From positions 35,223 to 99,222 of IMG/VR virus record IMGVR_UViG_3300024319_000005: a stretch of 64,000 bases of DNA, one strand, 5' to 3'. The position numbers and the translations under genes were made by a program. Source of the stretch: a virus. Positions 11,207 through 30,310 of the stretch are shown here, one piece after another; the first letter of the stretch is position 1, and every line of letters begins with the position of its first letter. The notes below the pieces were generated by a model, which had not been told where the DNA came from, searched no databases, and saw nothing but the letters and a program-made list of their open reading frames with translations.

Positions 11207-11245
11207 AAAAAAAATAGGTTCCTTTTTAATGTTGTCACCTACAAC
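11207..11245 (-). terminator. H-type pseudoknot plus U8 tract after MCP (candidate terminator)
   Basis: Minus strand GTTG-T-AGGT-GA-CAAC-ATTAAAAAGGA-ACCT-A-TTTTTTTT. Confidence 0.5.
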
Positions 11246-11294
11246 CAATCTCCAGTTTGATCATCTATATATAATCAAAAACAGATAGCGAATT

Positions 11295-12923
11295 TTAATA
11301 TGCTAGTGTAGGATCGAATTCTACTCTACCAATTCTTTCTGTATCCCATACACAAAGTCCACCAGACATTTCTCTGTACATACCCATTTTTTTGTTGTTT
11401 GAGTAAGCATTTGAACCGTCAGTAATAGCACCTGTTACAGGGTCATATATGTTAGAAACAGTGTAGTATGATTCTACTCCACCTTCTTGAACACATGTAA
11501 TGTTTGCATTGTTTGCTGCTGCAGCTTTTTGATCAGTTGCACCAAAATCAAAGATATCATAAGCGTATGACTCTAAAGTTCTATCAACTCCTGGAGCCAT
11601 TTCTGGGAATAAGTTTCTGTCATCTTTGATTGGGTCATGTTGTACTTGAATTACTAGACCATTTGTTAGTCTAATAGAAGTAAACTGTGATCCGTACTCT
11701 AATGCGTTCTGGTGAAATCTTGAATCAACATTACGGATAAATTTATCATCAACAGTAACGTATTGGAATTGAGAAGCTTCCTTAGCAATTAGTCTGTGGA
11801 AGAAATCAACACCTGCTTCACCTGTAGAAAGAATAATCAATCTATCAGAGAAATCACGTCTTGTGATAAATACAGACATTAAGTATTCAGAAAGATCTGA
11901 AAGAGTTAATGAACCGTTGTGTGAGTAGAAGTTACCATCTTTCACTAACTGTCTCCATCCTGGAGGAGTTTTGATTGGTCTTCCTGAATCATGATCTTGA
12001 GAAAACTGTAAACGACCCCATTCCATGCTGAATTCTAAATCTCTGTGGATTCTTTCTTCAAGGATTCCTTCCATCTTAGTAATATATGTTCCAGCCATTA
12101 CTTTCGTAGACTGTCCACCTTTACCTGTGTTTCCTAGATTCTTTAGTTCAGAGTAATACATGTACCCAACTCCTAGAGCTTCTCCAGTGTGAGTACCTGT
12201 TCCGTCTGAATAAGACATACCTGCAGAAGAACCTCCATCTCTACATCCCATTTCTAGTCTGATAAATTTGTCAGTTACCTCTACCTTTCTTGCAAATGCT
12301 CCTGTCACAGATGACAATTCAAACATTTGGTTAAAGATAGGTGCAGAATATTTTGTGTTAAGCTCTGTTGCTACTTGTGTAGTTGCATCAATAACTTTTC
12401 TACCTGGCATAATGTACTTAATGTCTACCCAAGAATTTGGATCTCCATCTTGTAACTCAACTACGTAGTGGTAGTTATTATCAGATACTCTTTTACCGTG
12501 TCCTACTATCTTTAGCATAGGAGCATCAGCACTTTCTGTTTTAAGAACAGTTGGCTCATGTACGTTCGGTGTATCAAGACCGATCATAAATGACATTCCT
12601 CCTCTTCCTGGCTTACTATCAAGAGGTACTAATACGTCTGTGATAGTAAATGAAGTCTCAGTTTCACTAATTAAAGCCCACTTATAATCATCAACCCCTG
12701 GTCGGAGTGTATGAACATTATTATTTCCTTTAGTCATATAAAGGAATTTTTTGTTTAATAGGTGTGTTCCTGGCTTAGATGAAAAAAGTTGCGCTCCTCT
12801 AACACCGAAGTTATGAGGTCCGTACTTTTTAAACATCTGCGCGTGTGAAAACGAGTCTTGAAATGAACCTCCTAGAGTTTCTCTTCTTGTAAACTCTAAT
12901 GCAGTTTTTCTAAATGTACTCAT
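11295..12923 (-). CDS. Major capsid protein (crAss-like)
   Basis: 542 aa, follows portal and an acidic scaffold-like gene; LEFSMEWG, TGEAG and V.HDP patterns fit crAss-like MCPs. Confidence 0.85.
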   Translation of the reverse strand: MSTFRKTALEFTRRETLGGSFQDSFSHAQMFKKYGPHNFGVRGAQLFSSKPGTHLLNKKFLYMTKGNNNVHTLRPGVDDYKWALISETETSFTITDVLVPLDSKPGRGGMSFMIGLDTPNVHEPTVLKTESADAPMLKIVGHGKRVSDNNYHYVVELQDGDPNSWVDIKYIMPGRKVIDATTQVATELNTKYSAPIFNQMFELSSVTGAFARKVEVTDKFIRLEMGCRDGGSSAGMSYSDGTGTHTGEALGVGYMYYSELKNLGNTGKGGQSTKVMAGTYITKMEGILEERIHRDLEFSMEWGRLQFSQDHDSGRPIKTPPGWRQLVKDGNFYSHNGSLTLSDLSEYLMSVFITRRDFSDRLIILSTGEAGVDFFHRLIAKEASQFQYVTVDDKFIRNVDSRFHQNALEYGSQFTSIRLTNGLVIQVQHDPIKDDRNLFPEMAPGVDRTLESYAYDIFDFGATDQKAAAANNANITCVQEGGVESYYTVSNIYDPVTGAITDGSNAYSNNKKMGMYREMSGGLCVWDTERIGRVEFDPTLAY

Positions 12924-12936
12924 TATAATTATTTAT

Positions 12937-13968
12937 TTAAGGATTAACAAATTGAACATCATCCATTAGGTTTTTGTTACGCTTAGTTCCAGAGCTTTTT
13001 CGTGACGAGGAGCTGTAATTCTGTCTAATAGAATTGTCTTTTAATTTTTCTACCTGTTTAGAGGCTGCAACTTTTGCAAACTCTGTAAGGTCAAATGTTT
13101 TAGTTTTAGCATCATAGTACTGACTTAATGTAATTAACTGTACTAATGATTCAGGATTAGTAAATGCTTCTGTAAATCTTTCTACATATGCATTACTTCT
13201 ATAGTTAGCTTTAATAGCCTCCTTTGTTCTTTTAGGAAATTTATTATTATCTATAGTATCATATAGACTAGTAGTAAATTCTCGTTGAGCTTCCTGTTGC
13301 TCCATCTCTTGTAACCTTTGTTGTTCCAAGATTTCATCAGGTGTAGTCTGAGATGCTTTTTGGTATTTAGAAGCTAGTTCTTTTAATGCCTTACCTTCTT
13401 CATCTCTTGATTCTAATAGGTCAATGTTAGACTCTATTAGATCATCATCAAGCCCTTGAGCTTTTAGATGGTTACTTACTATTTCTCTTGCACCTTCTAA
13501 AGAGTCAACTGATACTGGTTGGTTATATAAGTTTAAAAATCCAACTACATCTTGATCAGTAAGTTCGTGACCTTTATTCATAATATACTCCATTATCTGT
13601 TTACCTTTTTCATTGGTATTAGATAGTAAGTTATCTTTTACACTTTCAGGAATCTCTTCAAAAATTTCATCAAGTTTTTCAAATGTACCATCAAAGTCAT
13701 CTCTGTCTGTAATATAACCTTTGTCAAGTAAAGTTTTATAAGTACCTACTGCGGTAGGATCTTCTTCTACTTGTTCAGGAGCATCGTTAACATCAACTTC
13801 TTCTTCTTCTTGTACATTTTCTCCAGCAGGATCATACGTTGATTCTTGTACTGGGGTGGAATCCTCTCCTTCTGTTTCTACTTTATAGAAATCTGGATCA
13901 GATATAATTTCGACATTTTCATTGTCAAGTAGGTCATCCATAGCAGGGACCTCAAACGTTTTAGCCAT
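12937..13968 (-). CDS. Putative capsid scaffold protein
   Basis: Very acidic N-terminus, helical, between portal and MCP. Confidence 0.65.
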   Translation of the reverse strand: MAKTFEVPAMDDLLDNENVEIISDPDFYKVETEGEDSTPVQESTYDPAGENVQEEEEVDVNDAPEQVEEDPTAVGTYKTLLDKGYITDRDDFDGTFEKLDEIFEEIPESVKDNLLSNTNEKGKQIMEYIMNKGHELTDQDVVGFLNLYNQPVSVDSLEGAREIVSNHLKAQGLDDDLIESNIDLLESRDEEGKALKELASKYQKASQTTPDEILEQQRLQEMEQQEAQREFTTSLYDTIDNNKFPKRTKEAIKANYRSNAYVERFTEAFTNPESLVQLITLSQYYDAKTKTFDLTEFAKVAASKQVEKLKDNSIRQNYSSSSRKSSGTKRNKNLMDDVQFVNP

Positions 13969-13989
13969 AATTTTTCTTTTTATGTTCTA

Positions 13990-14020
13990 CAAATATACTA
14001 ACATATGTTGAAACTTCAAA
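13990..14020 (-). promoter_or_regulatory. Bacteroidota housekeeping-sigma promoter for scaffold/MCP
   Basis: Minus strand TTTG-N19-TATATTTG, an exact match to the -33 TTTG / -7 TAnnTTTG consensus, 22 nt upstream of ATG 13968. Confidence 0.85.
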
Positions 14021-14083
14021 ATGTAAATTAGATACTTTCTGAAGTTTCATACATAGTTATATTTAATTAAAAAATATTTAAAA

Positions 14084-16672
14084 TTAATTAGTTTCCGATT
14101 TAGATTTGGAAGTTGCAATCCTTTCTTTAGACTCAATGTCCTTTTCTTTTAGAACTTTTTCATTCTGAAGTTTAGATTCTTTAATATCCATATCTCTTTC
14201 TTTAATGTTTAATTCTCTAGTTTTAATGTCAGCGTCTTGCCCTAATTTAAGCACTTCCATATAATCAGGTACTCCATCATTATCAGCATCTTTATCTTCA
14301 GCTCTAGCTGTGTTATTCATGGCAGCTATCTTTTCACTAGATGCATTACGCATTCCCATTAACTGTACTTCATGAGCTTGTGAATCTTCAACTTGCTCTT
14401 TTTGCATTTGTGCCATTTTTTCTTGTGACTCCATACTAGCTTGTTGCTGTGCTTGCGCTCTTTCTTGTTGCTTTTGTACTTCTACTTGAATTAACTTATG
14501 AGTTTCTTCAGCTGATTGACCTGACGTAATTGATTTTAATAACGTAGATACTGCAGCCATTCCTTGTGGATTCTGCGAAAACGCTTGAGAGTTTTGCTTC
14601 ATATAGTTTTGATACTCAATATTGTTTCCAGTATTAGTAACAAATACCATTGTGTTTAGCATTTCTACAGATTTATGGCTTATCTTAAATAATTCTCTAG
14701 TTCCATCTTCAAGTAGATACTCTAATGAGTGTTCTTCTTCATCTTCAAGTAATACTCTTTCTGCAAAAGTTCTAAAGTTAATTAAATAATCATTAAATAC
14801 ATCTGCCCATATTTGAGAGTGTGCAAAAAACAAAGGCTCTGTAATATGGTGAGACTGTGCAATTGCTTGTCTATTATCAGCCACATTACTTCCTGAACTA
14901 AATGCTGCTTGTCTTTGTGGGCTAATACCCATCGCCATAGACATTTCTCTTTCTAGCAACTCTAGTAATTGTTGTAGTAGATATATTTCGTTAGCTGTTG
15001 ATAACATCATCCCATGCCCTCCAGGTGTTCTTTGGGGATTTGGTAAGCCAGACACTCCAACTTGCGACCCTGAGTAAAAGTTTTTACCTAAGTACCTTTG
15101 GTATACTAATGCAACCTTTAGTGGGTCATTTATTGTTTCTCCATCTACATCTTTACCTAGTGATTCTGGTATTTGGTCTATGTCTATGTTTTGTACATAC
15201 CCTTCGTATTTTGATAACTCTCTATTTTGTATATTTTTAATAAATAAATATTGCAAGTATAACGGCAATGCTCTTTCAAACATAGACACAGAAGCTGCGT
15301 TTCTAGCAGTTAATACTATACCTTTGGTAGACAATGAAAAATTAGAAAATGGATTTTCTAAATTAGTTACTTGATAAGGTACTTCTCTATACTTTACAAA
15401 TTTGTTAGAGTCTAATCTAGTTACTTCATACTTACGTGGAACCCATAACGGCTCTACTGAGTATTCTGAATCTTCATCCATCCACACAAACTTATGTGTC
15501 TTATGTCCAAATTTGTTTGTAAACTTAACTTTTTCTGCAGTTTTAGGTATATCAAAATCGTTTCTAACTAGTAATGTTACTTTTTCTCCTAATTCATTAA
15601 TATAAGACATAAAGTATACAGGCTTAAACGCTTTAAACTCAAATCGAGTTCTAGTTACTAACTGATCATCTCTATGTCCTGTTGTTTGATAAAGCCCATC
15701 AGTCTTTTCTCTTTTACCTCTAGCATCGTCATAAAAATCTTCTAGTATAGAATAGTCTTTTTCTGTGTTCTGTATATTCCTAGATCCTACCCCTAAACTA
15801 TTACGTTTATCTCTAATTGATGCATTGATAAAAGAATAATCTGCTATTTCTTCATCACTAAGTACGTCTATATATTCTTCTATAGCTTGTGCTGGTGTAA
15901 TAGTATCTATATGTGCAATCCAATCTCCTTTGTGTATTCTAGGTTCATTAGGTGATTTATGAAACTTAGTATTCATTGGGTTCCACACTTCTACCATAGG
16001 TGCTCCATGTTTCCAGCCAGAGTGAATAAAGCATCTATCATTTATAATAAGATCTGCTATTGTATCTAGCTCTTTGGCTTTAGTGTCTTGAGTAGCTTTA
16101 CAGAACTTAAGTGCATGTGAGTAAAATATTTCCCACTCAGAGCTAAAGTTTTTTGCATTAATATCTTCAGGCTGCTCTTGTGTAGTAAGCTCTTGGATCA
16201 TTTGATCTATCTCTGTAGGCTTCATTCCAGCCATCTTACCTTGCATTTCCTGTATCTTTATAGCTACCTTTTCCTCAACCGAGGCTGTAAGTGCAGCTAA
16301 AAGCTTTTCATTCTTATCTTTTATTGCTTTAGCAGATAAGATCATTACTTTAAAGTCTTCTACCCTCTTAAGCTTCTCTCCTTTTAATATGTTAACTAGG
16401 TTATGTAGTTTTGGATAAGATATTAAATCTTCTTCTACATTAAAGTCGGTATATACACCTAGTGGGTTACATATTTTCTTAGTTTCTTCTTTTATACTAC
16501 TAAGGTCACCGTTATATATTTGGTAATTTTTATGTAATCTATCATAGTCATCTACATAACTATCTTTATAGGGAACACAATATTCCATATAGTCTACATA
16601 CCAGTCTTTAGTTTTCTTAGAGTCTGGTACTTTTAAGTTTAACGGTATTTCCGTATTTTTAAATGCCTTCAT
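14084..16672 (-). CDS. Portal protein
   Basis: 862 aa; MAMGISPQRQA and QAIAQSHHITEPLFFAH portal-like motifs, Gln-rich coiled coil, C-terminal DADNDGVPD. Confidence 0.85.
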   Translation of the reverse strand: MKAFKNTEIPLNLKVPDSKKTKDWYVDYMEYCVPYKDSYVDDYDRLHKNYQIYNGDLSSIKEETKKICNPLGVYTDFNVEEDLISYPKLHNLVNILKGEKLKRVEDFKVMILSAKAIKDKNEKLLAALTASVEEKVAIKIQEMQGKMAGMKPTEIDQMIQELTTQEQPEDINAKNFSSEWEIFYSHALKFCKATQDTKAKELDTIADLIINDRCFIHSGWKHGAPMVEVWNPMNTKFHKSPNEPRIHKGDWIAHIDTITPAQAIEEYIDVLSDEEIADYSFINASIRDKRNSLGVGSRNIQNTEKDYSILEDFYDDARGKREKTDGLYQTTGHRDDQLVTRTRFEFKAFKPVYFMSYINELGEKVTLLVRNDFDIPKTAEKVKFTNKFGHKTHKFVWMDEDSEYSVEPLWVPRKYEVTRLDSNKFVKYREVPYQVTNLENPFSNFSLSTKGIVLTARNAASVSMFERALPLYLQYLFIKNIQNRELSKYEGYVQNIDIDQIPESLGKDVDGETINDPLKVALVYQRYLGKNFYSGSQVGVSGLPNPQRTPGGHGMMLSTANEIYLLQQLLELLEREMSMAMGISPQRQAAFSSGSNVADNRQAIAQSHHITEPLFFAHSQIWADVFNDYLINFRTFAERVLLEDEEEHSLEYLLEDGTRELFKISHKSVEMLNTMVFVTNTGNNIEYQNYMKQNSQAFSQNPQGMAAVSTLLKSITSGQSAEETHKLIQVEVQKQQERAQAQQQASMESQEKMAQMQKEQVEDSQAHEVQLMGMRNASSEKIAAMNNTARAEDKDADNDGVPDYMEVLKLGQDADIKTRELNIKERDMDIKESKLQNEKVLKEKDIESKERIATSKSKSETN

Positions 16673-18068
16673 TATTTATTATATAATTTGTGTTTAGGAG
16701 TAGCTCATATGATGCAAATGCATTTTTTAAAGATTGTACTATTACTCGTGTTGGATCTATAATACCTTCTTCTAATAAGTTACATGCCTTTTTGGTTAAA
16801 ACGTTAATTTCTTCTACAGTCTGTTCTAATTCAGCATTACTTTTAATTTGATATGCAGGTGCAAAGCCTATATCTTCGATTAGAGAGCCTTTTGCAGCCT
16901 CTGCTAGGGCTATACCTCCCCCCTTAACATATCCTCCCTCTATGGCAGCCTGTACGGCTCCTAGGGCATCTTCTATCCTATCGTATTCTTCCTGTCTGTT
17001 CTTTTCGGTTGCACCTCCTACATAAATAATAGCAGTAGAGCCTCTTAACTTATTTATTCTAATCTCAGCAAATCTTTTTTCGTGGTCTTCTATATACCCA
17101 TCAAACGTTGCTTCTACTTCCGCTATTCTTTTTTCTATACCTTCTTTACTTTCTGTAAAAATAGTAAATGCTACTGGAGTTATAATAATCTTATCAACCA
17201 ACCCTTGCTCATTACGTAGTGCTTCTATATCTCTATAATTCTCTACCATATTTCTACCCCAACCTGGAGCTTTAACTAAACAAGCTTTTAGTCCTTTAGT
17301 CATGTTACCGTAAACAGTAGATATAACTGCAGGAGAAAATCCTGGAGAAATAATTACTAATGGTGCATTTAATTTATTAGCGTGCTCTATAGCTTGTATG
17401 TATAAGGATGGATCAGACGATTTGTTTTCATCGATAACAACTAAAGCGTTTTCTAGGTTACAGTACCCATTACGTTGATTCTTAAACTTTTCAGAGATAT
17501 ACCCTGTGTTACCAATAAATTCTACACCACTTGCTACTTCGTAGTAAGTCTCAATAGACTCTTCATCTTCTTCTAGTGTTACTCTAGACTCTAGACCTAC
17601 TTGCTCGTATACTGTCTTTAGTATTTTTCCTACTTCTTTAGAGTTACCTGACGTAGATGCAATTGCCTCTAGTTCATCTAGTGTAGTAAGTTCTTTTGAG
17701 CTTTCTAGAACTTTATCTATTACTGTTGCTATTTCTGTTTGCAATGTAGTTACATACTCTCTTGTATTACTAGGGATTTCCCTATTAGCCATTGCTTTTA
17801 ATAATACTGACGTTGATGTAGTACCATCACCACATTCTTCTACTGTTTTCTGAGCTGAGTTAATTACTAACTGAGCACCTATATCTTCTATAGGGTTTCT
17901 TAACTTTATTTCTCTTGCTACTGATACTCCATCTTTAGTAAATCTAGAATATCCATTTCTGTTAATTAAAACGTATTTACCGTGAGCACCCATTGTTGAG
18001 GATACTACATCGGCAGCCTTAGACAAGCCTACTAATACTTCTTTTTTTGTGTCTATGATTCTGGTCAT
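16659..18068 (-). CDS. groEL: Phage chaperonin (GroEL-like, 469 aa)
   Basis: FTKDGVSVA, GDGTTST, VKAPGWG, RIEDALGA, GYVKGGGIAL and GIIDPTRV motifs. Confidence 0.95.
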   Translation of the reverse strand: MTRIIDTKKEVLVGLSKAADVVSSTMGAHGKYVLINRNGYSRFTKDGVSVAREIKLRNPIEDIGAQLVINSAQKTVEECGDGTTSTSVLLKAMANREIPSNTREYVTTLQTEIATVIDKVLESSKELTTLDELEAIASTSGNSKEVGKILKTVYEQVGLESRVTLEEDEESIETYYEVASGVEFIGNTGYISEKFKNQRNGYCNLENALVVIDENKSSDPSLYIQAIEHANKLNAPLVIISPGFSPAVISTVYGNMTKGLKACLVKAPGWGRNMVENYRDIEALRNEQGLVDKIIITPVAFTIFTESKEGIEKRIAEVEATFDGYIEDHEKRFAEIRINKLRGSTAIIYVGGATEKNRQEEYDRIEDALGAVQAAIEGGYVKGGGIALAEAAKGSLIEDIGFAPAYQIKSNAELEQTVEEINVLTKKACNLLEEGIIDPTRVIVQSLKNAFASYELLLNTNYIINNEGI

Positions 18069-20400
18069 GTATTGCGCTATTTGTTGATAAAAACTGTAAT
18101 CTGTTTGATTCTTTTTTTCTTCTGACTTGTGTCATAAAAGATTCTTGTTCTGATAAAAATGTAGGAACTAGTATTAACGATGATACTGCATCAAAGTTAC
18201 CATCTAGTGTAAACTGAGCAATTTGCCGTACTAAAAATATACAAGGTAGTGTTTCTATTAATTTAACTTCTCCGTTACCTCGTGTTACGTCAGTAAGTAA
18301 TAAGTCATTTGTATCATCTACCATTGTCATTTTACCTATAGCTCCTCTAGCACCTACCATATACCCAAACTGGGTTACTTTCTTTTCGTAGATACTGTCT
18401 CCTTTTGCATGCTGGGGTCTTAATGCTAGTAAATGTAACTTACTCTTTTTCTCAAAGTAAGACCTACAAAATTCCCCTCTGTTTGCTTCATATACTAACC
18501 CTCTAAATGGGTTACCATAGAATGCTAACAACTTTTCTAAATTCTGATAGTATTGTTTCTTACCTCCTTTAGGTTTACCTATGTAAGAACAAACTAGTTG
18601 GTTACCATCATGTGTAACACTGTACTTAGGATTTAAAAATCCATAGGTTACTCCTAACGATGCTCCGTCTTCTTGGTTATCTGATACATAAGGATCATGT
18701 ACAAAAAAATACATATCGTTAGGTACTGAACCTCTAACTTCTTGCGGTGGCTGGTACATCATTACTTCACCATCCATTCTTTCCATGTCTTTTCTAATTG
18801 GAAAATCATAAAAAGGATTAGGATTATGCACTATATCATAAGTTACTCCGTTAGGTTTAGCACTATCCCACCTTAACTCTATAGCTGTACCAATAGTTTG
18901 ATAGAGCTTTCTGTCCATTAATTGTCTCTCCCTTTCTACTGCTTCTTCATATGGTAGTAAATACTGTGCATCTGTAACCCACATGTGTGATGGTATATCA
19001 GGGTAGTTCATACAGTGCATTCTAAGTGTTTTGGGATTTGCAGACTGTGCTGCTTCCATATACTCACTTAACCAATGTTCTCGTGCTGCTTTTACATCTG
19101 TATTACCATTTCTATCCTTAAACTGTCTATAAGTCATGTATGCAGGAATAAAAAACCCTATATTACCAGTGTTCTCCCAAACGTCTTCATATTCTACTAT
19201 ATTAAATTGTGCAGGGTTAGTAAACATTTCTTTTGACTGCAATACTAACTCTACGTTTCCTGATGTACCTAGTAGATACTGTATCCCAAACTGTACACCA
19301 TTTCTTGTTACTGTTGCTTTATTAGAGTTCCATACTTCTATAACGTTATCACTTAATCCAACCTCCTCAAAGGTACTTACGTTATAACGACCTCCTGCTG
19401 CTGCTTCTGCTCCGTCTTTCTTGTTAGATGAATAAGATACATGAAACATTCTTGTACCTGTACCAAAACCACCTACCCAACTACCATTAATCTTTTGCTC
19501 ATATAAGTGTGCCCAACCACCAACTTGTTTGTTACCTGGCTTGATAGGACCATTCATATCTCTGTAGAATGGGTTAGGAGTCCAATCCGAACCACCTTGT
19601 TGCCCCCATACTCCTAGCCTTGGGTTAGTTGCAAACTCATTCATTGCATCTACAAGCTTCTGTATAAGTTCACCAGATTTATCTGTCTGCCCAGATCCTA
19701 TAGCTATTTCTATTTTTTGTACAACTTCTTTGTCATACTTTACTGCTCCATCAAAGCATATCTGATAAAGGTTAACTGCTATTGCAGAAAAAAAACTTTT
19801 ACCTGAACCCCTTGATCCAAATACAAACTGGTTACTAGCTGGGTTTTGAAACAAAGGTATTCCTAACGGTTCGTCAGTTACTCTTCTAAGGTTTTGTCTT
19901 GGGGGTAAGTATTTCTTTAACTTTCCTTTTTTGTTTATTACATTTAGTAATGCTTCTTTTAAGTCTGGATCCATGTCTTCAAACTCTGCAGTGTTAGGAA
20001 CTCCTTTTTCTACATAATCAAAATACAAACTATCAGAAGTATACTCATCATCATTCTTATATCCTGAAAACCCCCTTGCTTCCCAATGATGAAAAGCTTG
20101 TTCCCACTCTAAGTCTTGTATCTTTGGTGCAGTCTTCTTAGTTACTTTAGTAAACTTGTTAGTATCTACAATAATACCAAATTTACCATAAAAGTACAAA
20201 CAACCTGGCATATGCATCCATTTACCAAACTGCTGTGTCCATTTACCTTCTATACAGTATTTTTTTTCTTGTTGCCAATATTCTATGTATCTTGGGTCAC
20301 TAGGGTGAAATATTTTTATTTCATCTAAGTTAAATGCTTTTATATTATCTATTTTTACCCAATTAGGCTGACCACAAGTCCAATGTTTATATTCTGTCAT
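18019..20400 (-). CDS. terL: Terminase large subunit
   Basis: Walker A GSRGSGKS, Walker B STFEEVG, GTSG, nuclease motifs HDPY and NFDAVS; upstream of portal. Confidence 0.9.
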   Translation of the reverse strand: MTEYKHWTCGQPNWVKIDNIKAFNLDEIKIFHPSDPRYIEYWQQEKKYCIEGKWTQQFGKWMHMPGCLYFYGKFGIIVDTNKFTKVTKKTAPKIQDLEWEQAFHHWEARGFSGYKNDDEYTSDSLYFDYVEKGVPNTAEFEDMDPDLKEALLNVINKKGKLKKYLPPRQNLRRVTDEPLGIPLFQNPASNQFVFGSRGSGKSFFSAIAVNLYQICFDGAVKYDKEVVQKIEIAIGSGQTDKSGELIQKLVDAMNEFATNPRLGVWGQQGGSDWTPNPFYRDMNGPIKPGNKQVGGWAHLYEQKINGSWVGGFGTGTRMFHVSYSSNKKDGAEAAAGGRYNVSTFEEVGLSDNVIEVWNSNKATVTRNGVQFGIQYLLGTSGNVELVLQSKEMFTNPAQFNIVEYEDVWENTGNIGFFIPAYMTYRQFKDRNGNTDVKAAREHWLSEYMEAAQSANPKTLRMHCMNYPDIPSHMWVTDAQYLLPYEEAVERERQLMDRKLYQTIGTAIELRWDSAKPNGVTYDIVHNPNPFYDFPIRKDMERMDGEVMMYQPPQEVRGSVPNDMYFFVHDPYVSDNQEDGASLGVTYGFLNPKYSVTHDGNQLVCSYIGKPKGGKKQYYQNLEKLLAFYGNPFRGLVYEANRGEFCRSYFEKKSKLHLLALRPQHAKGDSIYEKKVTQFGYMVGARGAIGKMTMVDDTNDLLLTDVTRGNGEVKLIETLPCIFLVRQIAQFTLDGNFDAVSSLILVPTFLSEQESFMTQVRRKKESNRLQFLSTNSAIHDQNHRHKKRSISRLV

Positions 20401-20415
20401 ACGCTATTCTAGTTT

Positions 20416-20447
20416 AAAAAGAAGAGAGAGCTTCGGGCTCCCTCCCC
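20416..20447 (-). terminator. Intrinsic terminator just upstream of terL
   Basis: Minus strand GGGAGGGAGC-CCGAA-GCTCTCTCTT-CTTTTT. Confidence 0.65.
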
Positions 20448-20460
20448 AATTCACCTATTG

Positions 20461-20497
20461 GATTGTCTTTATTTACAAGGGTACAATCTTAAACCCT
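20461..20497 (-). ncRNA. H-type pseudoknot
   Basis: Minus strand AGGGT-TTAA-GATTGT-ACCCT-TGTAAATAAAG-ACAATC (5-bp and 6-bp perfect stems). Confidence 0.6.
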
Positions 20498-20516
20498 CTC
20501 TGCACAAAGTGTAATC

Positions 20517-23746: not shown

Positions 23747-24067
23747 TTAGTTCCTAGGTATACCTATCCCCCTGGAAATTTTGTCTTTCTTGAGAGATAC
23801 TCTCGTAACTCCGTTATTAACCTGTAACTTCTACTCACTGTACGTCACCACTTACGTGGTTACACCCTTGAAGGTACGTCTATATCAACCCTTAGTATTA
23901 TTCCTTCCTAAGTTTTATATACAGGCAATTTTTGTTATTATCGGGGACATTTCAACCATTATGTTTCTCTGTTATCTCAAGAGCATAGTCTATAACCCAA
24001 CGTCTGAACTTGTGCTTTCTATAAGGATAGATGCTATTAACCAAGTTGTAATTAGTAGTTGAACTAA
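23747..24067 (-). ncRNA. Candidate ~320-nt structured leader or ncRNA
   Basis: Three nested long-range helices plus local hairpins between the promoter at 24078 and ATG 23732 (see findings). Confidence 0.5.
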
Positions 24068-24077
24068 TATAACAATG

Positions 24078-24109
24078 CAAATATAAAACGAATATCTGGA
24101 TTATCCTAA
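24078..24109 (-). promoter_or_regulatory. Bacteroidota sigma promoter for the late arm
   Basis: Minus strand TTAG-N20-TATATTTG (-7 exact, -33 with one mismatch). Confidence 0.7.
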
Positions 24110-24318
24110 TTTTTTAGCACTTATTTTTAAAAAACTTTTAATCGAAGGAGAGTACTTATAAATAAGGGGTTGGGTTCATTTGAGGGTAGTGCATTAGAGC
24201 TTAAATATAAATTACATTATTTAAAAAATGGAAATATGGCGTAAAAAGTTGCCTAAAATAAAAAATTTTTTTTTTTAAAAAAATGGATTTGCGTATAGAT
24301 AACCTCCGTCGATGTATA

Positions 24319-24342
24319 CAAACAATTACCCCAAACTAATTA
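24319..24342 (+). promoter_or_regulatory. Conserved 24-nt box, copy 1 (candidate vRNAP early promoter)
   Basis: CAAACAATTACCCCAAACTAATTA, 75 nt upstream of the first plus-strand gene. Confidence 0.55.
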
Positions 24343-24416
24343 TTGACAGAATTGTACCCCCAGGGTACGATTCATAATTTTTATCGAAAGCTTTCTGCTT
24401 TCAAAAATTTCGTACT

Positions 24417-24740
24417 ATGACTTTTAATGATTTGTTAGACACTCTTAACGTTAACTCTCTTTCTTTAACAATGCAGAAAGATTTAGACGGTATTGAGACT
24501 GGGTATGCTACTCAGTGGGATGCTTCTACTCGTACGAGAGTAGTTATGTCTCCTGAAGCCCTTGCAGGTGCTTCAGACCCTTCTGTTAACAACTTCGTTG
24601 TTATTCCTTCTTCATTAGTTTCTAAGGACAAGACTGTCCTTAACAAAGAGACTGGTGCTGAAGAAACTATTAAGGGACAACCTTATGTGAATAACTTCGT
24701 TATTCTCGGTGAGCCAACTATTACGTTTGGCAGACACTAG
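24417..24740 (+). CDS. Hypothetical early protein
   Basis: 107 aa with an A-rich translation start region; followed by a cUUCGg hairpin at 24754-24777. Confidence 0.8.
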   Translation: MTFNDLLDTLNVNSLSLTMQKDLDGIETGYATQWDASTRTRVVMSPEALAGASDPSVNNFVVIPSSLVSKDKTVLNKETGAEETIKGQPYVNNFVILGEPTITFGRH

Positions 24741-24785
24741 ACTTTGATACACTTCCTCTGAGCTTCGGCTCAGGGGATTAAAGCT

Positions 24786-24820
24786 TGACCTGAACATGTC
24801 GCAAACTGTTCTATTTTTTT
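24786..24820 (+). ncRNA. H-type pseudoknot plus U tract
   Basis: TGAC-CT-GAACA-T-GTCG-CAAAC-TGTTC-TATTTTTTT. Confidence 0.6.
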
Positions 24821-24821
24821 G

Positions 24822-24922
24822 TAGTACATTGGAGATAATACATACGACGGTATGAATCCATAGCATAACTGGGGTCGAAAATGATAAGTCAACGATGTAC
24901 TTATTGATGCGCCAATGTACTA
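24822..24922 (+). ncRNA. Candidate ~100-nt structured RNA
   Basis: 11-bp perfect closing stem TAGTACATTGG/CCAATGTACTA with internal hairpins. Confidence 0.5.
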
Positions 24923-25019
24923 TTTTTACCTAACGGTAAAAACTTGTCACTTTTAAAAAGTGTTATGACATCGTAGTTATAATTACGTTACGGTACATTT
25001 ACTAATCTTTAAATAATTC

Positions 25020-25190
25020 ATGATTATGATGCATTTGGATACTGTTATTAAACTAGACAGTTTACAAGACCTTTGGACTATTGACACTAATGCTCAGTTT
25101 GAGACTATGAGTGGTATAGATACTGAGGGTACTTACATAGTCTTTTATAAGATAGGTAAGCAATACTACAGTGTAAGACTAAACTCTTAA
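25020..25190 (+). CDS. Small hypothetical protein (56 aa, not in track)
   Basis: MIMMHLDTVIKLDSLQDLW...YYSVRLNS*; a pseudoknot follows the stop. Confidence 0.6.
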   Translation: MIMMHLDTVIKLDSLQDLWTIDTNAQFETMSGIDTEGTYIVFYKIGKQYYSVRLNS

Positions 25191-25196
25191 TAAGCT

Positions 25197-25231
25197 TGAC
25201 CTGAGTATGTCGCAAAAGACTCAATTTTTTT
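25197..25231 (+). ncRNA. H-type pseudoknot plus U tract (paralog of 24786)
   Basis: TGAC-C-TGAGT-AT-GTCG-CAAAAG-ACTCA-ATTTTTTT; stem 2 covaries with the 24786 copy. Confidence 0.6.
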
Positions 25232-25254
25232 CTTAACCTTTAGAACATTACGTT

Positions 25255-25326
25255 ATGGAATACACAATAGAAGAACTCATTGCAGAGGTACAAGCTTTAA
25301 CTGATTACTTAACTTGGCTAGATTAG
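25255..25326 (+). CDS. Acidic micro-protein (23 aa)
   Basis: MEYTIEELIAEVQALTDYLTWLD*; could form an amphipathic helix. Confidence 0.4.
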   Translation: MEYTIEELIAEVQALTDYLTWLD

Positions 25327-25365
25327 CCAGGTTAAACAGTTGGTTAAATACCTTTAGAAAGAGTC

Positions 25366-25443
25366 ATGATATCGTAGTTTTTGGTTAACATCTTAACCAG
25401 GAATCATGACATCGAAGTTTCCTGACTCCTGACTCCTGACTCC
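25366..25443 (+). repeat. ATGAYATCGWAGTT direct repeats and (CCTGACT)3 tandem
   Basis: Copies at 25366 and 25406 (third at 24965) flank the hairpin TGGTTAA-CATC-TTAACCA; 7-mer x3 at 25421-25441. Confidence 0.7.
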
Positions 25444-25628
25444 TTATTCTTTTACTTGCTAAATTATATAATTATGTTACACCTAAAAATTGTATTCTTT
25501 TTCTATCTTATACTATCTATATGCTGCTTTACTACAATATTCGTAGGAGATTTACCTTATATAAGCCTTACCGCTACAATAGGACTAACCGTAGTCACTG
25601 TTACCGTAGGTCAATGCATCCAACGATG

Positions 25629-25652
25629 CAAACAACCTCCCCAATCTAATTA
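25629..25652 (+). promoter_or_regulatory. Conserved 24-nt box, copy 2
   Basis: CAAACAACCTCCCCAATCTAATTA. Confidence 0.55.
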
Positions 25653-25811
25653 ATGGGGTTCGTCCTTGAATAATTCTACTGGATTTACGTAGAATTTTTA
25701 ATTTTTGTTGGTAAATAGGTTACGTTGGGATTAGTACCAACCATACCTTTTACCCTCTTTTTGACACTTACTTATAATCACATTCCTAATGAATAATTAA
25801 ATTCTTTTAAA

Positions 25812-25970
25812 ATGAAAGACTTTCTATCAATCCTATATTTAGTTATAGCTCTATCAATACTTCTTATTGGTTCTTTAACTATTATACTTATACTTTCAGA
25901 TTATCCAGAGATGATATTTGCTAGTATAGCTGTATATTTTACTTTCAACTATTTAGTAGACAAGGTCTAA
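25812..25970 (+). CDS. Small membrane protein (52 aa, not in track)
   Basis: MKDFLSILYLVIALSILLIGSLTIILILSDYPEMIFASIAVYFTFNYLVDKV*; two hydrophobic segments. Confidence 0.6.
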   Translation: MKDFLSILYLVIALSILLIGSLTIILILSDYPEMIFASIAVYFTFNYLVDKV

Positions 25971-26020
25971 GTTCTAACCTAGTAATAGAACGTAATTATA
26001 ATATCAAAATATATTTTCAA

Positions 26021-26521
26021 ATGAAATACTTTATAACAATACTTACATTATTATCTATTACTAATTTCACTTATTCTCAAGACTATAGTTATGTAGATAA
26101 ACTATCTAACACTAACTATACTGAGTGGAATGGTCAAGTAGGACATACTAGTATAGAAAAACCTGTACGAGCTGTAATAGAATACCAAGGCAATTACAAT
26201 TTTATATTTAACTTAGTATTAAGTTTAGAAACTAAAGACAAAGGGTTTTTTACTTTACCTTTTAAAGCTACACATAGCACTGCTTTTGATGGCGAAAGTG
26301 GAACAGTTATCCTTAAATTAAAGGATTTTGGTAGTCCAGCTTTGTTTATAAAAATACAAATACCAAACAAGCATGGCTTTCAATGTATAGTACATTACTT
26401 ATACATTAAATCTTTTATAAATGATGTACCTCTTAGAATAGTAATAAAAGATCAAAAGATTATAGACATAATAGATACTCTTACTTCTTCAATAAATAAA
26501 CAAGAGTATTATGGTATATAA
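26021..26521 (+). CDS. Secreted hypothetical protein
   Basis: Signal peptide MKYFITILTLLSITNFTYS|Q. Confidence 0.7.
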   Translation: MKYFITILTLLSITNFTYSQDYSYVDKLSNTNYTEWNGQVGHTSIEKPVRAVIEYQGNYNFIFNLVLSLETKDKGFFTLPFKATHSTAFDGESGTVILKLKDFGSPALFIKIQIPNKHGFQCIVHYLYIKSFINDVPLRIVIKDQKIIDIIDTLTSSINKQEYYGI

Positions 26522-26669
26522 AGGATGGCAGATAGAAGAAGATGATTGGTTCAAAGACAATTATGTTGCTTGGGATTTAAATGATTGTGATAATCACAAT
26601 ATACTGCACAGTATTTCTCTAGAATCTATTAAAATAGAAATAGATGAGTACATTGACGATTATAATTAA
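26511..26669 (+). CDS. Small acidic protein (52 aa, not in track)
   Basis: MVYKGWQIEEDDWFKDNYVAWDLNDCD...EIDEYIDDYN*. Confidence 0.6.
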   Translation: MVYKGWQIEEDDWFKDNYVAWDLNDCDNHNILHSISLESIKIEIDEYIDDYN

Positions 26670-26687
26670 TGCCTTGAAATAACAGGC

Positions 26688-26716
26688 GAGTTTGGCAACT
26701 ACTCTAAATAAGTTGC
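26688..26716 (+). ncRNA. H-type pseudoknot
   Basis: GAGT-TTG-GCAACT-ACTC-TAAATA-AGTTGC. Confidence 0.6.
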
Positions 26717-26788
26717 ATTTACCTCAGTACAACATAGCTTAAGTAATCGTTAAGTAATATTGTTGTACTGGGTATTTTAAACAACAGT

Positions 26789-26926
26789 ATAGCGTCTCTT
26801 TTATGAGTGAGGTTAGATAGATAGGTAAGGTAACTATGTTACGTGAGCATGGAGTAGGATTGCAATTAAGCAATAAACTGAAATACGCTTTACTTACTAA
26901 TGAGAGTTCGAGTCTCTTGCGCTATA
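26789..26926 (+). ncRNA. tRNA-like RNA (acceptor stem and T-arm, enlarged core)
   Basis: ATAGCGT/GCGCTAT+A acceptor stem stacked on GAGAG-TTCGAGT-CTCTT T-arm; followed by a T tract. Confidence 0.65.
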
Positions 26927-26967
26927 TTTTTTTATTTCCTAACATCATTATTAAATTTATATAAAAA

Positions 26968-27342: not shown

Positions 27343-27347
27343 CAAAA

Positions 27348-27896: not shown

Positions 27897-27909
27897 AATT
27901 TATATACAA

Positions 27910-29031: not shown

Positions 29032-29873
29032 AGATAGTACCTTGGGTTAACAAAACGATAACACCTAAACCAAACGGTAGGAGCAGTGATTTTATTTCTG
29101 CTTCCTACATTTGGGGATGTAACGGTGGTTGTAAAAACTATTGTTATGTCTATCGTAATCAGAAGCAAACAGTAAATGTTGCTACCAATTTAGATCAAAT
29201 TGAAGCGGCTGTTACCAAACTAGCAAATAAATTGCCTTTGCACAAGCCACCTAATCAAATATCACAGAATGGTTTGTATTATCTTGATATTGGGTGTAAT
29301 TCTGATGTAGCACTATACAGTAAAAGAATTGAATTAGAAAGAATACTTAAATTTTATGACAATAATTTAAAACTTAACACTACTTTTGCTACTAAATACT
29401 CTAAATTACTGACACTAGATGTAAATCATTTTAATAAAAAACCTAGAGTTCGTGTATCATTGATGCCTGAACGACTAGCTACTGTATTAGAAAGTGGTTG
29501 TACATCAGTACCTGAACGTATTACTGACATAAAAAGATTACAAAGTCTTGGTTGGGAAGTACAGATTAATTTTAGTCCAGTTGTATTATATAATAACTGG
29601 CAAAGAGACTACAATGAGTTGTTTAAGATTATAGCTAATCAAGATATAGATGTACCTTGTGAAGTTATTATGTTAACAGGATCTGTAGCACCAAATATTC
29701 CTGAGTTTGAGCATAATTACTTGTTAAGTAATGAATTTCAAGAAGAAAAAATAACAAAATATGGTTCTAAAGCTAAAAGATATAACTATCATATGAAAAA
29801 AGGAGCTATAGAAAACTTTAAAACTATTTATTCAAAGTATTGGGATGTAAAAAACATCAGATACATTTTTTAA
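29028..29873 (+). CDS. Spore-photoproduct-lyase-like radical SAM protein
   Basis: GCNGGCKNYCYV, DIGCNSD, TFATKY, RVRVSLMP, INFSPVV. Confidence 0.85.
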   Translation: MKIVPWVNKTITPKPNGRSSDFISASYIWGCNGGCKNYCYVYRNQKQTVNVATNLDQIEAAVTKLANKLPLHKPPNQISQNGLYYLDIGCNSDVALYSKRIELERILKFYDNNLKLNTTFATKYSKLLTLDVNHFNKKPRVRVSLMPERLATVLESGCTSVPERITDIKRLQSLGWEVQINFSPVVLYNNWQRDYNELFKIIANQDIDVPCEVIMLTGSVAPNIPEFEHNYLLSNEFQEEKITKYGSKAKRYNYHMKKGAIENFKTIYSKYWDVKNIRYIF

Positions 29874-29918
29874 TTTAAAAAATATTAATTAATCTTAAAC
29901 TTTAAAAATTACCACATT

Positions 29919-30125
29919 ATGAAAATATCTATATTGAAAGAATTAAATCAATATGTAAACGATTTGATAAAAGATAAAGTACTAACAAAAGAAAATTTTG
30001 ATGATTGGCATTATATCGCATTTAATCATTTAGATCCATTTGGAGCGGTTCAAATATGCAATAAGTACGAAATATACGGCAAAGAAGTTATTTCTTCGAT
30101 ACAAGACAATTTTCACAAATATTAA
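29919..30125 (+). CDS. Hypothetical protein
   Basis: ORF with A-rich start context. Confidence 0.6.
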   Translation: MKISILKELNQYVNDLIKDKVLTKENFDDWHYIAFNHLDPFGAVQICNKYEIYGKEVISSIQDNFHKY

Positions 30126-30252
30126 AATATTAAAATGTCTTTACTTTAGCTATAGGCTAAACTGGGAGTCCATCATAAAGGTACAAAGAATTTTTGATAT
30201 AACCATTTGGAACGTGGCTTTGCATTTACCTTGCATCATTGTACAGTTGATG

Positions 30253-30276
30253 CAAACCACACCCCCAATCTAATTA
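30253..30276 (+). promoter_or_regulatory. Conserved 24-nt box, copy 3
   Basis: CAAACCACACCCCCAATCTAATTA. Confidence 0.55.
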
Positions 30277-30277
30277 C

Positions 30278-30310
30278 AGGTTATCTCTGACCTTAAACAG
30301 AGTCGTTTTT
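30278..30310 (+). ncRNA. H-type pseudoknot
   Basis: AGGT-TAT-CTCTG-ACCT-TAAA-CAGAG-TCGTTTTT. Confidence 0.6.

What the first reader, a model, noticed from the sequence alone, without database searches (positions are those of the whole stretch)
11207..30310. Six intergenic H-type pseudoknots, always in the transcribed sense
Seen: compact pseudoknots at 11207-11245(-), 20461-20497(-), 24786-24820(+), 25197-25231(+), 26688-26716(+) and 30278-30310(+). Each has 4-6 bp stems, a 0-2 nt middle loop and an A-rich loop 3, and four are followed by U tracts. The 24786 and 25197 copies share AAGCTTGACCTGA..ATGTCGCAAA, and their stem 2 covaries (GAAC/GTTC versus GAGT/ACTC). Orientation flips with the arm. 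Inference: pseudoknot-type terminators or exonuclease blocks. The AGGT..ACCT-TAAA copy also resembles the fold of type III antitoxin (ToxI) RNAs, so an anti-defence decoy role is possible but weaker. Similar elements may already be known from Bacteroidota hosts; I cannot check.
Basis: partly seen in the sequence, partly recalled or inferred. Interest (0 to 1): 0.75.

Follow-up and report, generated by a model that had tools for sequence, protein, structure and literature searches.

The report
Small RNA folds between phage genes
Of six proposed RNA pseudoknots in a marine crAss-like phage, four loci are real, evolutionarily maintained small RNA structures not in Rfam, but they are not one class of "pseudoknot terminators", and the count of six is no more than chance gives.

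Summary
The window is part of a 99-kb marine crAss-like phage. Its closest cultured relative is Cellulophaga phage phi14:2.

**Observation.** All six sequences exist as described. But the loosely defined motif is equally common in sense, antisense and shuffled intergenic DNA (27, 29 and 23.7±3.1). It is also not clearly sense-specific in 80 related loci (46 sense, 35 antisense, 16–32 shuffled).

**Comparison with four related phages sorts the sites.**
- **Site 2** (20461–20497, − strand) keeps both helices through three compensated pairs. It lies in the 116-nt leader of the large terminase gene, just before a canonical terminator. I found no recognisable promoter in that leader.
- **Sites 3 and 4** are copies of a 40-nt element. 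Helix 2 covaries at two pairs; helix 1 never varies. Copy 1 sits in a 70-nt cassette that is identical between phages whose flanking genes differ.
- **Site 5** has one compensated pair in helix 1.
- **Site 6** keeps helix 1 while helix 2 is wholly replaced in a relative.
- **Site 1** loses helix 1 pairs in two lineages. It is most simply a weak hairpin plus U8 after the capsid gene.

**Interpretation.** U-tracts are not conserved at sites 3 and 6 and are absent at sites 2 and 5. There is no Rfam match and no ToxI-like feature. The best reading is a mixed set of small cis-acting UTR structures, with a terminase-leader attenuator as the most interesting one. Their functions are unproven.

The parts
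20461..20498 (-). Site 2: H-type pseudoknot (G)AGGGT/ACCCT(T) + ATTGT/ACAAT, with an 11-nt A-rich loop 3. It starts 18 nt after the stop codon of the 90-aa ORF (20517-20789).
   Evidence: G001 has GATAGT/ACTATC + GTTGT/ACAAC at the same place, which is three compensated pairs with a 1-nt register shift. L092 loses only the inner pair of S1. A pseudoknot of this quality arises in 10 of 4000 shuffles of the G001 segment. The MFE nested alternative (CUUUGU/AUAAAG) is broken by uncompensated changes in L092.
20449..20459 (-). Conserved single-stranded block AATAGGTGAAT between the pseudoknot and the terminator.
   Evidence: It is identical in G001 although the flanks have diverged, and has one change in L092. 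The pattern search found the whole arrangement only in G001.
20421..20447 (-). Canonical intrinsic terminator (11-pair stem, CCGAA loop, U-tract). It ends 20 nt before the TerL start codon at 20400.
   Evidence: Top hit of the terminator scan. The stem is rebuilt with different sequence in L092 and G001. No Bacteroidota-type -7 box (TAnnTTTG) lies in this spacer. A 111-nt fold of the leader has z = -2.9.
24750..24820 (+). Mosaic cassette after the first + arm ORF (24417-24740). It holds a UUCG-capped 9-bp hairpin (24755-24776) and then D6 copy 1, which is site 3 (24781-24820): TGAC/GTCG, GAACA/TGTTC, T7.
   Evidence: A 56-nt core of the block (24750-24805) is identical in L005 and L007, whose upstream gene is different. 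Downstream sequence differs in L092, L005 and L007. Strain junctions seen in RNA-library contigs fall at 24750 and 24819. The T-run is absent in L092 and L005.
25192..25231 (+). D6 copy 2, which is site 4: TGAC/GTCG, TGAGT/ACTCA, T7. It starts 1 nt after the double stop codon TAATAA of ORF 25020-25190.
   Evidence: Repeat family D6. Nearly identical in L092, whose only change is a T-run one base shorter (T6). Helix 2 has two pairs changed on both sides relative to copy 1; helix 1 is invariant.
26688..26716 (+). Site 5: GAGT/ACTC + GCAAC/GTTGC, loop 3 TAAATAA. It starts 18 nt after the stop of ORF 26511-26669 and lies about 70 nt upstream of a tRNA-like element.
   Evidence: The aligned 45 nt have only two substitutions in L092, and they are the two partners of one S1 pair (G-C to A-T). 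At the edge of a deletion in L092, the last base of the S2 3' strand becomes T, giving a G-U pair. S2 is the MFE hairpin. A pseudoknot of this quality arises in 1 of 4000 shuffles.
30278..30310 (+). Site 6: AGGT/ACCT + CTCTG/CAGAG, loop 3 TAAA, then TCGTTTTT. It starts 1 nt after a D2 box and ends 28 nt before the start codon of ORF 30331-30588.
   Evidence: G001 has AGGT-tcca-ATACGT-ACCT-agtaa-ACGTAT, ending 27 nt before the homologous gene. S1 is kept and S2 is wholly replaced. Such a pseudoknot arises in 5 of 4000 shuffles of the G001 segment. No U-tract follows in G001. I found no homologue of site 6 in L092.
11207..11245 (-). Site 1: a weak hairpin (T)AGGT/ACCT(A) with a 17-nt loop, followed by T8, after the major capsid gene. 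The proposed helix 1 is not supported.
   Evidence: GTTGT becomes GTTAT in G001 and L002 (an A.C mismatch) and GTTGC in L092 (a C.A mismatch), while ACAAC stays constant. Loop 1 is 0 nt. The T-run is kept in all relatives.

Best explanation
The six sites are a mixed set, not one device. Four loci (site 2, the site 3/4 repeat, site 5 and site 6) are small cis-acting RNA structures maintained by selection in the short untranslated spacers of a marine crAss-like phage. A pseudoknot is the fold that best fits the comparative data at sites 2 and 5. It is compatible with the data at sites 3/4 and 6.

**Roles inferred from position (not shown).**
- **Site 2** forms a leader with its conserved flank AAUAGGUGAAU and the canonical terminator that follows. 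This leader lies between the upstream small-gene operon and the large terminase gene. The nearest upstream host-type -7 box on that strand is at 24078-24085. I found no recognisable promoter after the terminator, so terminase transcripts would have to read through it. The pseudoknot is then most likely the part of an attenuator or antitermination switch that a phage or host factor acts on.
- **The D6 element** (sites 3 and 4) ends the first two small genes of the + arm. It probably serves as their 3'-end structure, giving termination and/or protection from 3' exonucleases. Copy 1 and its upstream hairpin also act as a conserved joint at which related phages exchange flanking genes.
- **Sites 5 and 6** are small UTR structures of unknown role. 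Site 6 travels with the downstream gene at a fixed 27-28 nt from its start codon, so it looks more like a 5' leader element than a terminator.
- **Site 1** is a weak hairpin with a U8 tract after the capsid gene, and its pseudoknot is a chance drawing.
For: **Phage identity and gene map:**

**Conservation of pairing.**
- Site 2: with 10 of 4000 shuffles matching.
- D6. Two pairs are changed on both sides. The cells-paired, cells-changed and covariation measures were each reached by 1 of 500 shuffles; the count of pairs with a change on both sides was reached by 117 of 500. Slid controls give 22-43% paired against 92% observed.
- Site 5. The only two substitutions in 45 nt are the two partners of one pair.
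- Site 6: with 5 of 4000 shuffles matching.

**Leader architecture of site 2.** The terminator is the top scan hit. TAnnTTTG boxes on the - strand occur only at 24078-24085 and 13990-13997 in this part of the genome. High-depth RNA-library contigs of three runs end at 13969-13977, which supports the use of such boxes.

**Cassette behaviour of 24750-24820:**

**Link of site 6 to the downstream gene.** Homology with G001 starts at 30314, and the upstream genes show no detectable DNA similarity.

**Transcription.** Contig depth in four metatranscriptome libraries is strongly non-uniform.

**Not a described family.** There is no Rfam match at the gathering score or at E up to 10.
Against: - Only three informative lineages exist (the window with the TARA contigs, L092, and G001), so each covariation case rests on one or two events.
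- Helix 1 of D6 and helix 1 of site 6 never vary. The pseudoknot, as opposed to a hairpin with a conserved loop and flank, is therefore unproven there.
- The helices are short. Stacking sums are only about -3 to -7 kcal/mol after two initiation terms, similar to the nested MFEs.
- Thresholds for the shuffle tests were set after seeing the sites.
- No 3' or 5' ends could be mapped, because the RNA runs are held only as contigs.
- 'No promoter before TerL' rests on the absence of known motifs only.
- More distant TerL relatives, including phi14:2, have no leader at all. Whatever site 2 does is therefore dispensable for the wider group.
Confidence: 0.5

Rival explanations
1. One reading: the six sites form one class of pseudoknot-type intrinsic terminators or 3' exonuclease blocks used on both arms of the phage.
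For: All six lie 1-49 nt after a stop codon, in the sense strand. Four are followed by U-tracts. With the G-C filter and a T-run requirement, there are 4 loci in sense, 0 in antisense and 0.18 in shuffles. The S2 hairpins alone have 10-17-nt loops and are too weak to act as ordinary terminators, so extra pairing would help. Contig depth falls 1.7- to 7-fold across 24780-24820 in three RNA libraries (weak).
Against: U-tracts are not conserved after site 3 (L092, L005) or site 6 (G001), and sites 2 and 5 have none. Site 2 precedes a separate canonical terminator. Helix 1 of site 1 is broken in relatives. There is no sense-specific excess in 80 related loci: 46 against 35 overall, and 7 against 5 with a T-run. 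Depth rises across site 6 in three of four runs.
Confidence: 0.2
2. There are only simple hairpins plus chance. Each site is an ordinary hairpin (S1 or S2), and the second helix is a coincidental 4-bp complement that never forms.
For: The generic motif is as frequent in antisense and shuffled sequence and in other natural sequence. Helices of 4-5 bp are marginal. S1 of D6 and S1 of site 6 are invariant and so untested. Site 1 fails.
Against: At site 2 both helices change with compensation, and the nested alternative does not survive in L092. At site 5 the helix that is not the MFE hairpin carries the compensated pair. The flank and loop of D6 are invariant at 23 of 23 positions between copies that differ at 7 of the remaining 17.
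Confidence: 0.18
3. The elements are DNA-level signals. They could be structured (hairpin) promoters for the virion RNA polymerase, as in phage N4, or recombination joints, rather than RNA elements. This applies mainly to the + arm elements (D6, site 6 with its D2 box).
For: D2, D3 and D6 are confined to the start of the + arm, where no host-type -7 box occurs. Site 6 starts 1 nt after a D2 box. RNA contig depth rises 5- to 90-fold just after the first D2 box and rises across site 6 in three of four runs. The phi14:2 virion polymerase transcribes denatured DNA, and no linear early-promoter motif was found for it (bioRxiv 10.1101/2020.03.07.982082). Strain junctions lie exactly at the edges of the D6 cassette.
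Against: D6 copies follow stop codons directly and are followed by U-tracts in most copies. Compensated pairing is equally expected for RNA. There are no mapped 5' ends. Site 2 and site 1 lie on the host-transcribed late arm.
Confidence: 0.1
4. The elements are ToxI-like type III antitoxin mimics or anti-defence decoy RNAs.
For: Only the general shape supports this: a small pseudoknot with an A-rich loop.
Against: There is no tandem array of about 36-nt units. Only chance-level Rfam matches appear at E up to 10, and none to an antitoxin family. No neighbouring ORF has any Pfam domain, so no ToxN/AbiQ-type nuclease domain was found.
Confidence: 0.02

Closest known systems
Transcription attenuators and riboswitch-type leaders built from a small H-type pseudoknot followed by an intrinsic terminator (e.g. 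the preQ1-I class), and processive antitermination RNAs such as HK022 put (from general knowledge)
   Same: Site 2 has a compact pseudoknot with an A-rich loop 3 and conserved unpaired nucleotides. A canonical terminator follows directly, in the leader of a gene that has no promoter of its own that I could find.
   Different: No covariance model in Rfam matches. No conserved antiterminator pairing was found: the ACCCU/AGGG alternative is not kept in G001. The ligand or factor is unknown. The element is confined to a very small clade.
Canonical Rho-independent terminators of Bacteroidota and their phages
   Same: The position after genes in the sense strand, and a U-tract after sites 1, 3, 4 and 6. 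Canonical examples exist in this phage (20447-20421). RNIE predicts many in Bacteroides thetaiotaomicron (PMC3152330).
   Different: The hairpins at sites 1, 3 and 4 have 4-5-bp stems and 10-17-nt loops and fail the consensus scan. The U-tracts are not conserved between relatives.
Conserved boundary sequences at module junctions of mosaic phage genomes (from general knowledge)
   Same: The 24750-24820 cassette has an identical 56-nt core in phages whose genes on either side differ, and strain junctions fall at its edges.
   Different: Here the joint is itself a structured element with compensated pairing and a second copy 411 nt away.
Abundant early non-coding RNAs of Cellulophaga phage phi14:2 (intergenic g004-g006; bioRxiv 10.1101/2020.03.07.982082)
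   Same: A marine crAss-like phage with long, highly transcribed intergenic regions at the start of the early arm. Here too the spacers at 24063-26967 are long, structured and well covered in RNA libraries.
   Different: I did not compare the intergenic sequences. TerL is only 28.7% identical, and the structures of the phi14:2 RNAs are not described.
ToxI-type (type III) antitoxin RNAs
   Same: A small pseudoknot fold.
   Different: There are no tandem repeats, no adjacent toxin gene and no model match.

Membership tests
H-type RNA pseudoknot (structural class) | Two helices in which the 3' strand of helix 2 pairs with the loop of helix 1, both supported by compensated substitutions | tested here: met
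   Met at site 2 only: both helices are compensated in G001. At site 5, helix 1 is compensated and helix 2 is the stable MFE hairpin.
H-type RNA pseudoknot (structural class) | The same test for sites 3/4 and 6 | tested here: inconclusive
   Helix 2 covaries or is replaced, but helix 1 never varies, so it is neither supported nor contradicted.
H-type RNA pseudoknot (structural class) | The same test for site 1 | tested here: not met
   Helix 1 has uncompensated mismatches in G001/L002 and in L092. Loop 1 is 0 nt.
Intrinsic (Rho-independent) terminator | A stable G+C-rich hairpin with a short loop, directly followed by a U-tract | tested here: not met
   The scan finds only 20447-20421 (beside site 2) and the S2 hairpin of site 6. 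Sites 1, 3, 4 and 5 are not found. Their hairpins fold at -3.7 to -6.1 kcal/mol with z near 0.
Intrinsic (Rho-independent) terminator | The U-tract is conserved in relatives | tested here: not met
   It is kept at sites 1 and 4. It is lost at site 3 in L092 and L005 and at site 6 in G001. It is absent at sites 2 and 5.
Intrinsic (Rho-independent) terminator | RNA 3' ends at the U-tract | not testable with these tools
   The RNA runs are held only as contigs, which cannot show ends.
Type III antitoxin RNA (ToxI-like) | A tandem array of about 36-nt repeats next to a ToxN-family endoribonuclease gene, and a covariance-model match | tested here: not met
   There is no tandem array. No Rfam match to an antitoxin family appears at E up to 10. 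The neighbouring ORFs have no Pfam domain.
Known pseudoknot riboswitches (preQ1, SAM-II/V, fluoride, guanidine-III and others in Rfam 15) | A match to the family covariance model | tested here: not met
   cmscan at the gathering score on the whole window, and at E up to 10 on each site, gave no riboswitch family.
Recoding signals (-1 frameshift or stop-codon readthrough stimulators) | A slippery heptamer or leaky stop 5-9 nt upstream, and an extended frame downstream | tested here: not met
   Read directly from the sequence. Site 4 follows a double stop TAATAA. Readthrough at site 6 would add 12 codons. There is no X XXY YYZ heptamer at the right spacing. At site 2 the spacer is 18 nt.

The most novel reading that the evidence does not exclude
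The site 2 pseudoknot, its invariant AAUAGGUGAAU flank and the terminator form a new factor- or ligand-responsive attenuator. It would gate read-through into the packaging and structural genes of a crAss-like phage. The other A-rich-loop pseudoknots (D6, sites 5 and 6) would be triplex-stabilised RNA end-protection modules that are exchanged between phages as cassettes.
Probability: 0.15. Interest if true: 0.7.

Novelty: new member of a known kind. Interest (0 to 1): 0.4.

Why it matters
How crAss-like phages switch between early, middle and late transcription is poorly known. For phi14:2, no early promoter motif was found, and abundant early non-coding RNAs have no assigned role.

This work yields a short list of small, comparatively supported RNA structures. 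The most useful is a pseudoknot plus terminator in the terminase leader. It also yields a conserved structured cassette at gene-exchange joints. These give concrete, cheap targets for 3'/5'-end mapping and mutate-and-rescue tests.

It also shows that counting hand-drawn 4-bp pseudoknots in AT-rich intergenic DNA is not evidence by itself.

Tried and rejected
- **Rfam.** I searched the whole window at the gathering score and each site at E up to 10. Only chance-level hits appeared. ARAGORN found no tRNA.
- **preQ1-type riboswitch at site 2.** There is no model match, and the candidate antiterminator pairing is not kept in G001.
- **Frameshift or readthrough signal.** The spacing and reading frames do not fit.
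- **Host-type promoter inside the elements.** There is no TAnnTTTG box, and no convincing -35/-10 pair is conserved in G001.
- **ToxI mimic.** Rejected.
- **More distant relatives for covariation.** I fetched 80 TerL loci at 35-56% identity, but they have no spacer before TerL, and neither does phi14:2. A pattern search for the site 2 arrangement found only G001. MCP, TerL and DNA-polymerase searches in IMG/VR found only G001 and L002.
- **RNA libraries.** Four metatranscriptomes hold the phage, but only as contigs. Transcript ends could not be read, and gaps in cover mean nothing.
- **MAFFT alignments of site 2.** They put the 1-nt register shift in the wrong place. I therefore read the pairs directly and by script instead of with the count of structure pairs.
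- **Literature.** Three full-text searches found no paper describing pseudoknot-type terminators or these motifs in Bacteroidota or Crassvirales. This is a limited search.
- **TAGGTGA.** It is shared by site 1 and the site 2 flank, with 2 intergenic copies against about 1 expected. This is not significant.

Full report
**Context.** The window is bases 35223-99222 of a 99,222-nt IMG/VR virus record. It encodes crAss-type proteins:
- major head protein (11295-12923, − strand);
- portal (14084-16672, −);
- large terminase TerL (18019-20400, −);
- DNA polymerase (31122-33344, +);
- ribonucleotide reductase.

Genes run on the − strand up to 23732, on the + strand from 24417 to 53948, and on the − strand again from 54129. 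Near-identical DNA is held in seawater metagenomes, including TARA contigs. The closest cultured phage is Cellulophaga phage phi14:2, with TerL 28.7% identical. A flavobacterial host is an inference from that.

**1. The observation.** U-tracts follow sites 1, 3, 4 and 6. Sites 3 and 4 are two copies of a 40-nt repeat 411 nt apart, with none expected by chance.

The count of six carries no weight, however:
This gave 27 loci in sense, 29 in antisense and 23.7±3.1 in dinucleotide shuffles.
- A filter for at least four G-C pairs, which I chose after seeing the sites, gives 7 in sense, 3 in antisense and 1.5±1.2 in shuffles.
- The same filtered motif occurs at 1.0-1.5 per kb across whole loci of relatives and on strands with no ORF (mostly antisense to genes). 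That equals the 1.65 per kb in sense intergenic DNA here.
- In 247 intergenic spacers from 80 related crAss-like TerL loci, the counts are 46 in sense, 35 in antisense and 16-32 in shuffles. With a T-run they are 7, 5 and about 1.

Nested folds of the six short elements are ordinary, with z-scores from -1.1 to +0.4.

**2. Relatives.** Informative relatives are few:
- G001 (78,947 nt, about 75-80% identical; loci L003, L008-L010, L094-L096);
- L002, which is like G001;
- L092, a 69.4-kb contig about 92% identical;
- two TARA contigs about 97% identical (L091, L093);
- two fragments that carry the D6 element (L005, L007).

**Site 1.** The spacer after the capsid gene is 93% conserved. Among its few changes, GTTGT becomes GTTAT in G001 and L002, and GTTGC in L092. 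The partner ACAAC stays fixed, so each change creates a mismatch. Loop 1 would be 0 nt. AGGT/ACCT and the T8 tract are invariant. I read this as a weak hairpin plus U-tract, not a pseudoknot.

**Site 2.** In G001 the primary sequence of the element has diverged strongly, yet the same fold is there. GATAGT/ACTATC replaces (G)AGGGT/ACCCT(T), and GTTGT/ACAAC replaces ATTGT/ACAAT. That is three compensated pairs, with equal loop lengths and a 1-nt register shift relative to the flanks.
- L092 loses only the innermost S1 pair.
- A pseudoknot of that quality arises in 10 of 4000 shuffles of the 60-nt G001 segment.
- The nested alternative that RNAfold prefers in the window (CUUUGU/AUAAAG) suffers two uncompensated changes in L092.
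- Unpaired blocks are conserved: GTGCAG, TGTAAAT in loop 3, and AATAGGTGAAT.
- Thirteen nucleotides downstream lies the best canonical terminator of the region (20447-20421). Its stem is rebuilt with other bases in L092 and G001.
- The TerL start codon follows 20 nt later.
- The only Bacteroidota-type −7 boxes (TAnnTTTG) in − strand spacers of this part of the genome are TATATTTG at 24078-24085 and at 13990-13997.
- High-depth contigs from three RNA libraries end at 13969-13977, just downstream of the second box.

TerL therefore seems to lie in the unit that starts at 24085 and to be reached only by reading through this terminator. That step is inferred, not shown. In G001 a tRNA gene sits directly after the U-tract, again with no room for a promoter. 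More distant relatives and phi14:2 have no spacer before TerL. The arrangement was found only in G001 by a pattern scan of IMG/VR.

**Sites 3 and 4 (the D6 element).** Across six copies, helix 2 has two pairs changed on both sides, in register: A-U to G-C and C-G to U-A. Helix 1 (UGAC/GUCG) never varies. The flank AAGCTTGACCTGA and the loop ATGTCGCAAA are invariant apart from one loop change in L092.

Copy 1 follows a UUCG-capped 9-bp hairpin. A 56-nt core of the block (24750-24805) is identical in L005 and L007, whose upstream gene is different. The sequence after it differs in L092, L005 and L007. Contigs from RNA libraries show strain junctions at exactly 24750 and 24819. One contig joins 24819 to 26779.

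L005 carries the copy-2 type of helix 2 at the copy-1 position, so the two types are exchanged as units. The T-run after copy 1 is missing in L092 and L005.

**Site 5.** In the aligned 45 nt, L092 differs from the window at two positions only. They are the two partners of one helix 1 pair (G-C to A-U). At the edge of a deletion that removes the following long hairpin in L092, the last base of the helix 2 3' strand becomes T, giving a G-U pair. Helix 2 is the MFE hairpin.

**Site 6.** G001 has AGGT-tcca-ATACGT-ACCT-agtaa-ACGTAT. Helix 1 and its geometry are kept, and helix 2 is replaced outright. Such a fold arises in 5 of 4000 shuffles. Homology with G001 covers only the downstream gene. The element ends 28 nt (window) and 27 nt (G001) before that gene's start codon, while the upstream genes show no detectable DNA similarity. 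No U-tract follows in G001.

**3. Transcription evidence.** Four metatranscriptome libraries hold the phage, and contig depth is far from flat:
- the capsid block 11000-13970 is 10-20 times deeper than the portal and terminase region;
- depth jumps 5- to 90-fold just after 24340.

The region is therefore transcribed. Contigs cannot show ends, and mixed strains confound the steps. As weak hints:
- depth falls 1.7- to 7-fold across 24780-24820;
- depth rises across site 6 in three of four runs;
- depth shows no consistent step at site 2.

**4. What it is.** Four loci are selected small RNA structures; ssDNA remains a conceivable alternative.
- A pseudoknot is well supported at site 2.
- It is reasonably supported at site 5.
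- It is compatible but unproven at D6 and site 6.
- It is contradicted at site 1.

The helices are short and marginal at 37 °C. A cold-water host would stabilise them, which is an inference.

The sites do not share one function:
- U-tracts are inconsistent across relatives.
- One element precedes a separate terminator.
- One travels with the gene downstream of it.
- One is a mobile joint between exchanged genes.

My preferred mechanistic readings are:
- an attenuator or antitermination leader for TerL (site 2);
- an early-gene 3'-end and recombination cassette (D6);
- UTR elements of unknown role (sites 5 and 6).

These readings are inferred from position and conservation only.

**5. Comparison with known systems.** No Rfam family matches. 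The ToxI idea fails every defining feature that could be tested. Recoding signals do not fit.

Canonical terminators exist in this phage and are predicted in Bacteroides thetaiotaomicron (PMC3152330), so there is no need to posit a special terminator type. The phi14:2 study reports abundant early intergenic RNAs of unknown function and no linear early-promoter motif. This keeps open a DNA-level reading, a structured promoter for the virion polymerase, for the + arm elements.

**6. Verdict.** These are new, narrow-clade members of a known kind (cis-acting structured UTR RNAs). Interest is moderate. The terminase-leader pseudoknot plus terminator is the part most worth an experiment.

Noticed in passing
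window 24315-24342, 25625-25652, 30249-30276 (+): Three copies of a 28-nt box (GATGCAAAC..CCCCAAtCTAATTA), found only at the start of the + arm. Each is followed within 1-20 nt by a hairpin and a T-run. RNA-library contig depth jumps 5- to 90-fold just after the first box. G001 has a similar box plus hairpin before its first + arm gene (L095 3687-3740). This may be a promoter.
   Followed up: partly
window 24963-24978, 25364-25379, 25404-25419 (+); then 25426-25446: Box TCATGAyATCGwAGTT in three copies. L092 has three tandem copies where the window has two. TGACTCC repeated three times follows. This may be an operator or promoter array.
   Followed up: partly
window 26789-26926 (+): A tRNA-like element with acceptor stem ATAGCGT/GCGCTAT and a T-arm with loop TTCGAGT, about 138 nt long. 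It is strongly conserved in L092, with T-arm changes that keep the pairing. ARAGORN and Rfam do not recognise it. A T7 run follows, and RNA contig depth drops after it. G001 has a shorter tRNA-like minihelix at about L095 4400-4452.
   Followed up: partly
window 13990-13997 and 24078-24085 (-): Two TATATTTG boxes of the Bacteroidota -7 type in − strand spacers. High-depth contigs of three RNA libraries end at 13969-13977, consistent with a strong late promoter for the capsid-gene unit.
   Followed up: partly
L010 1501-4893 (G001 TerL); L003 about 1445-1530: The relative's terminase gene carries an intein (Hint and LAGLIDADG-type Pfam domains on protein P0003; the match spans 3393 nt against 2382 nt here). 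A tRNA gene is inserted between the site 2 terminator and TerL.
   Followed up: no
window 26717-26786 (+): A long imperfect hairpin (CCTCAGTACAACA...TGTTGTACTGGG) followed by TATTTT. It is deleted in L092. One RNA-library contig joins 24819 directly to 26779, so some strains lack 24820-26778.
   Followed up: no
window 11234-11240 and 20451-20457 (-): TAGGTGA, complementary to the 3' end of 16S rRNA (from general knowledge), occurs in intergenic DNA only at site 1 and beside site 2. Both copies are conserved in G001. Two copies against about one expected is not significant.
   Followed up: partly
window 25256-25327 (+): A 23-codon ORF (MEYTIEELIAEVQALTDYLTWLD) starts 25 nt after the site 4 T-run. 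It is conserved in L092 with one synonymous and one conservative change. It may be a real micro-gene.
   Followed up: no
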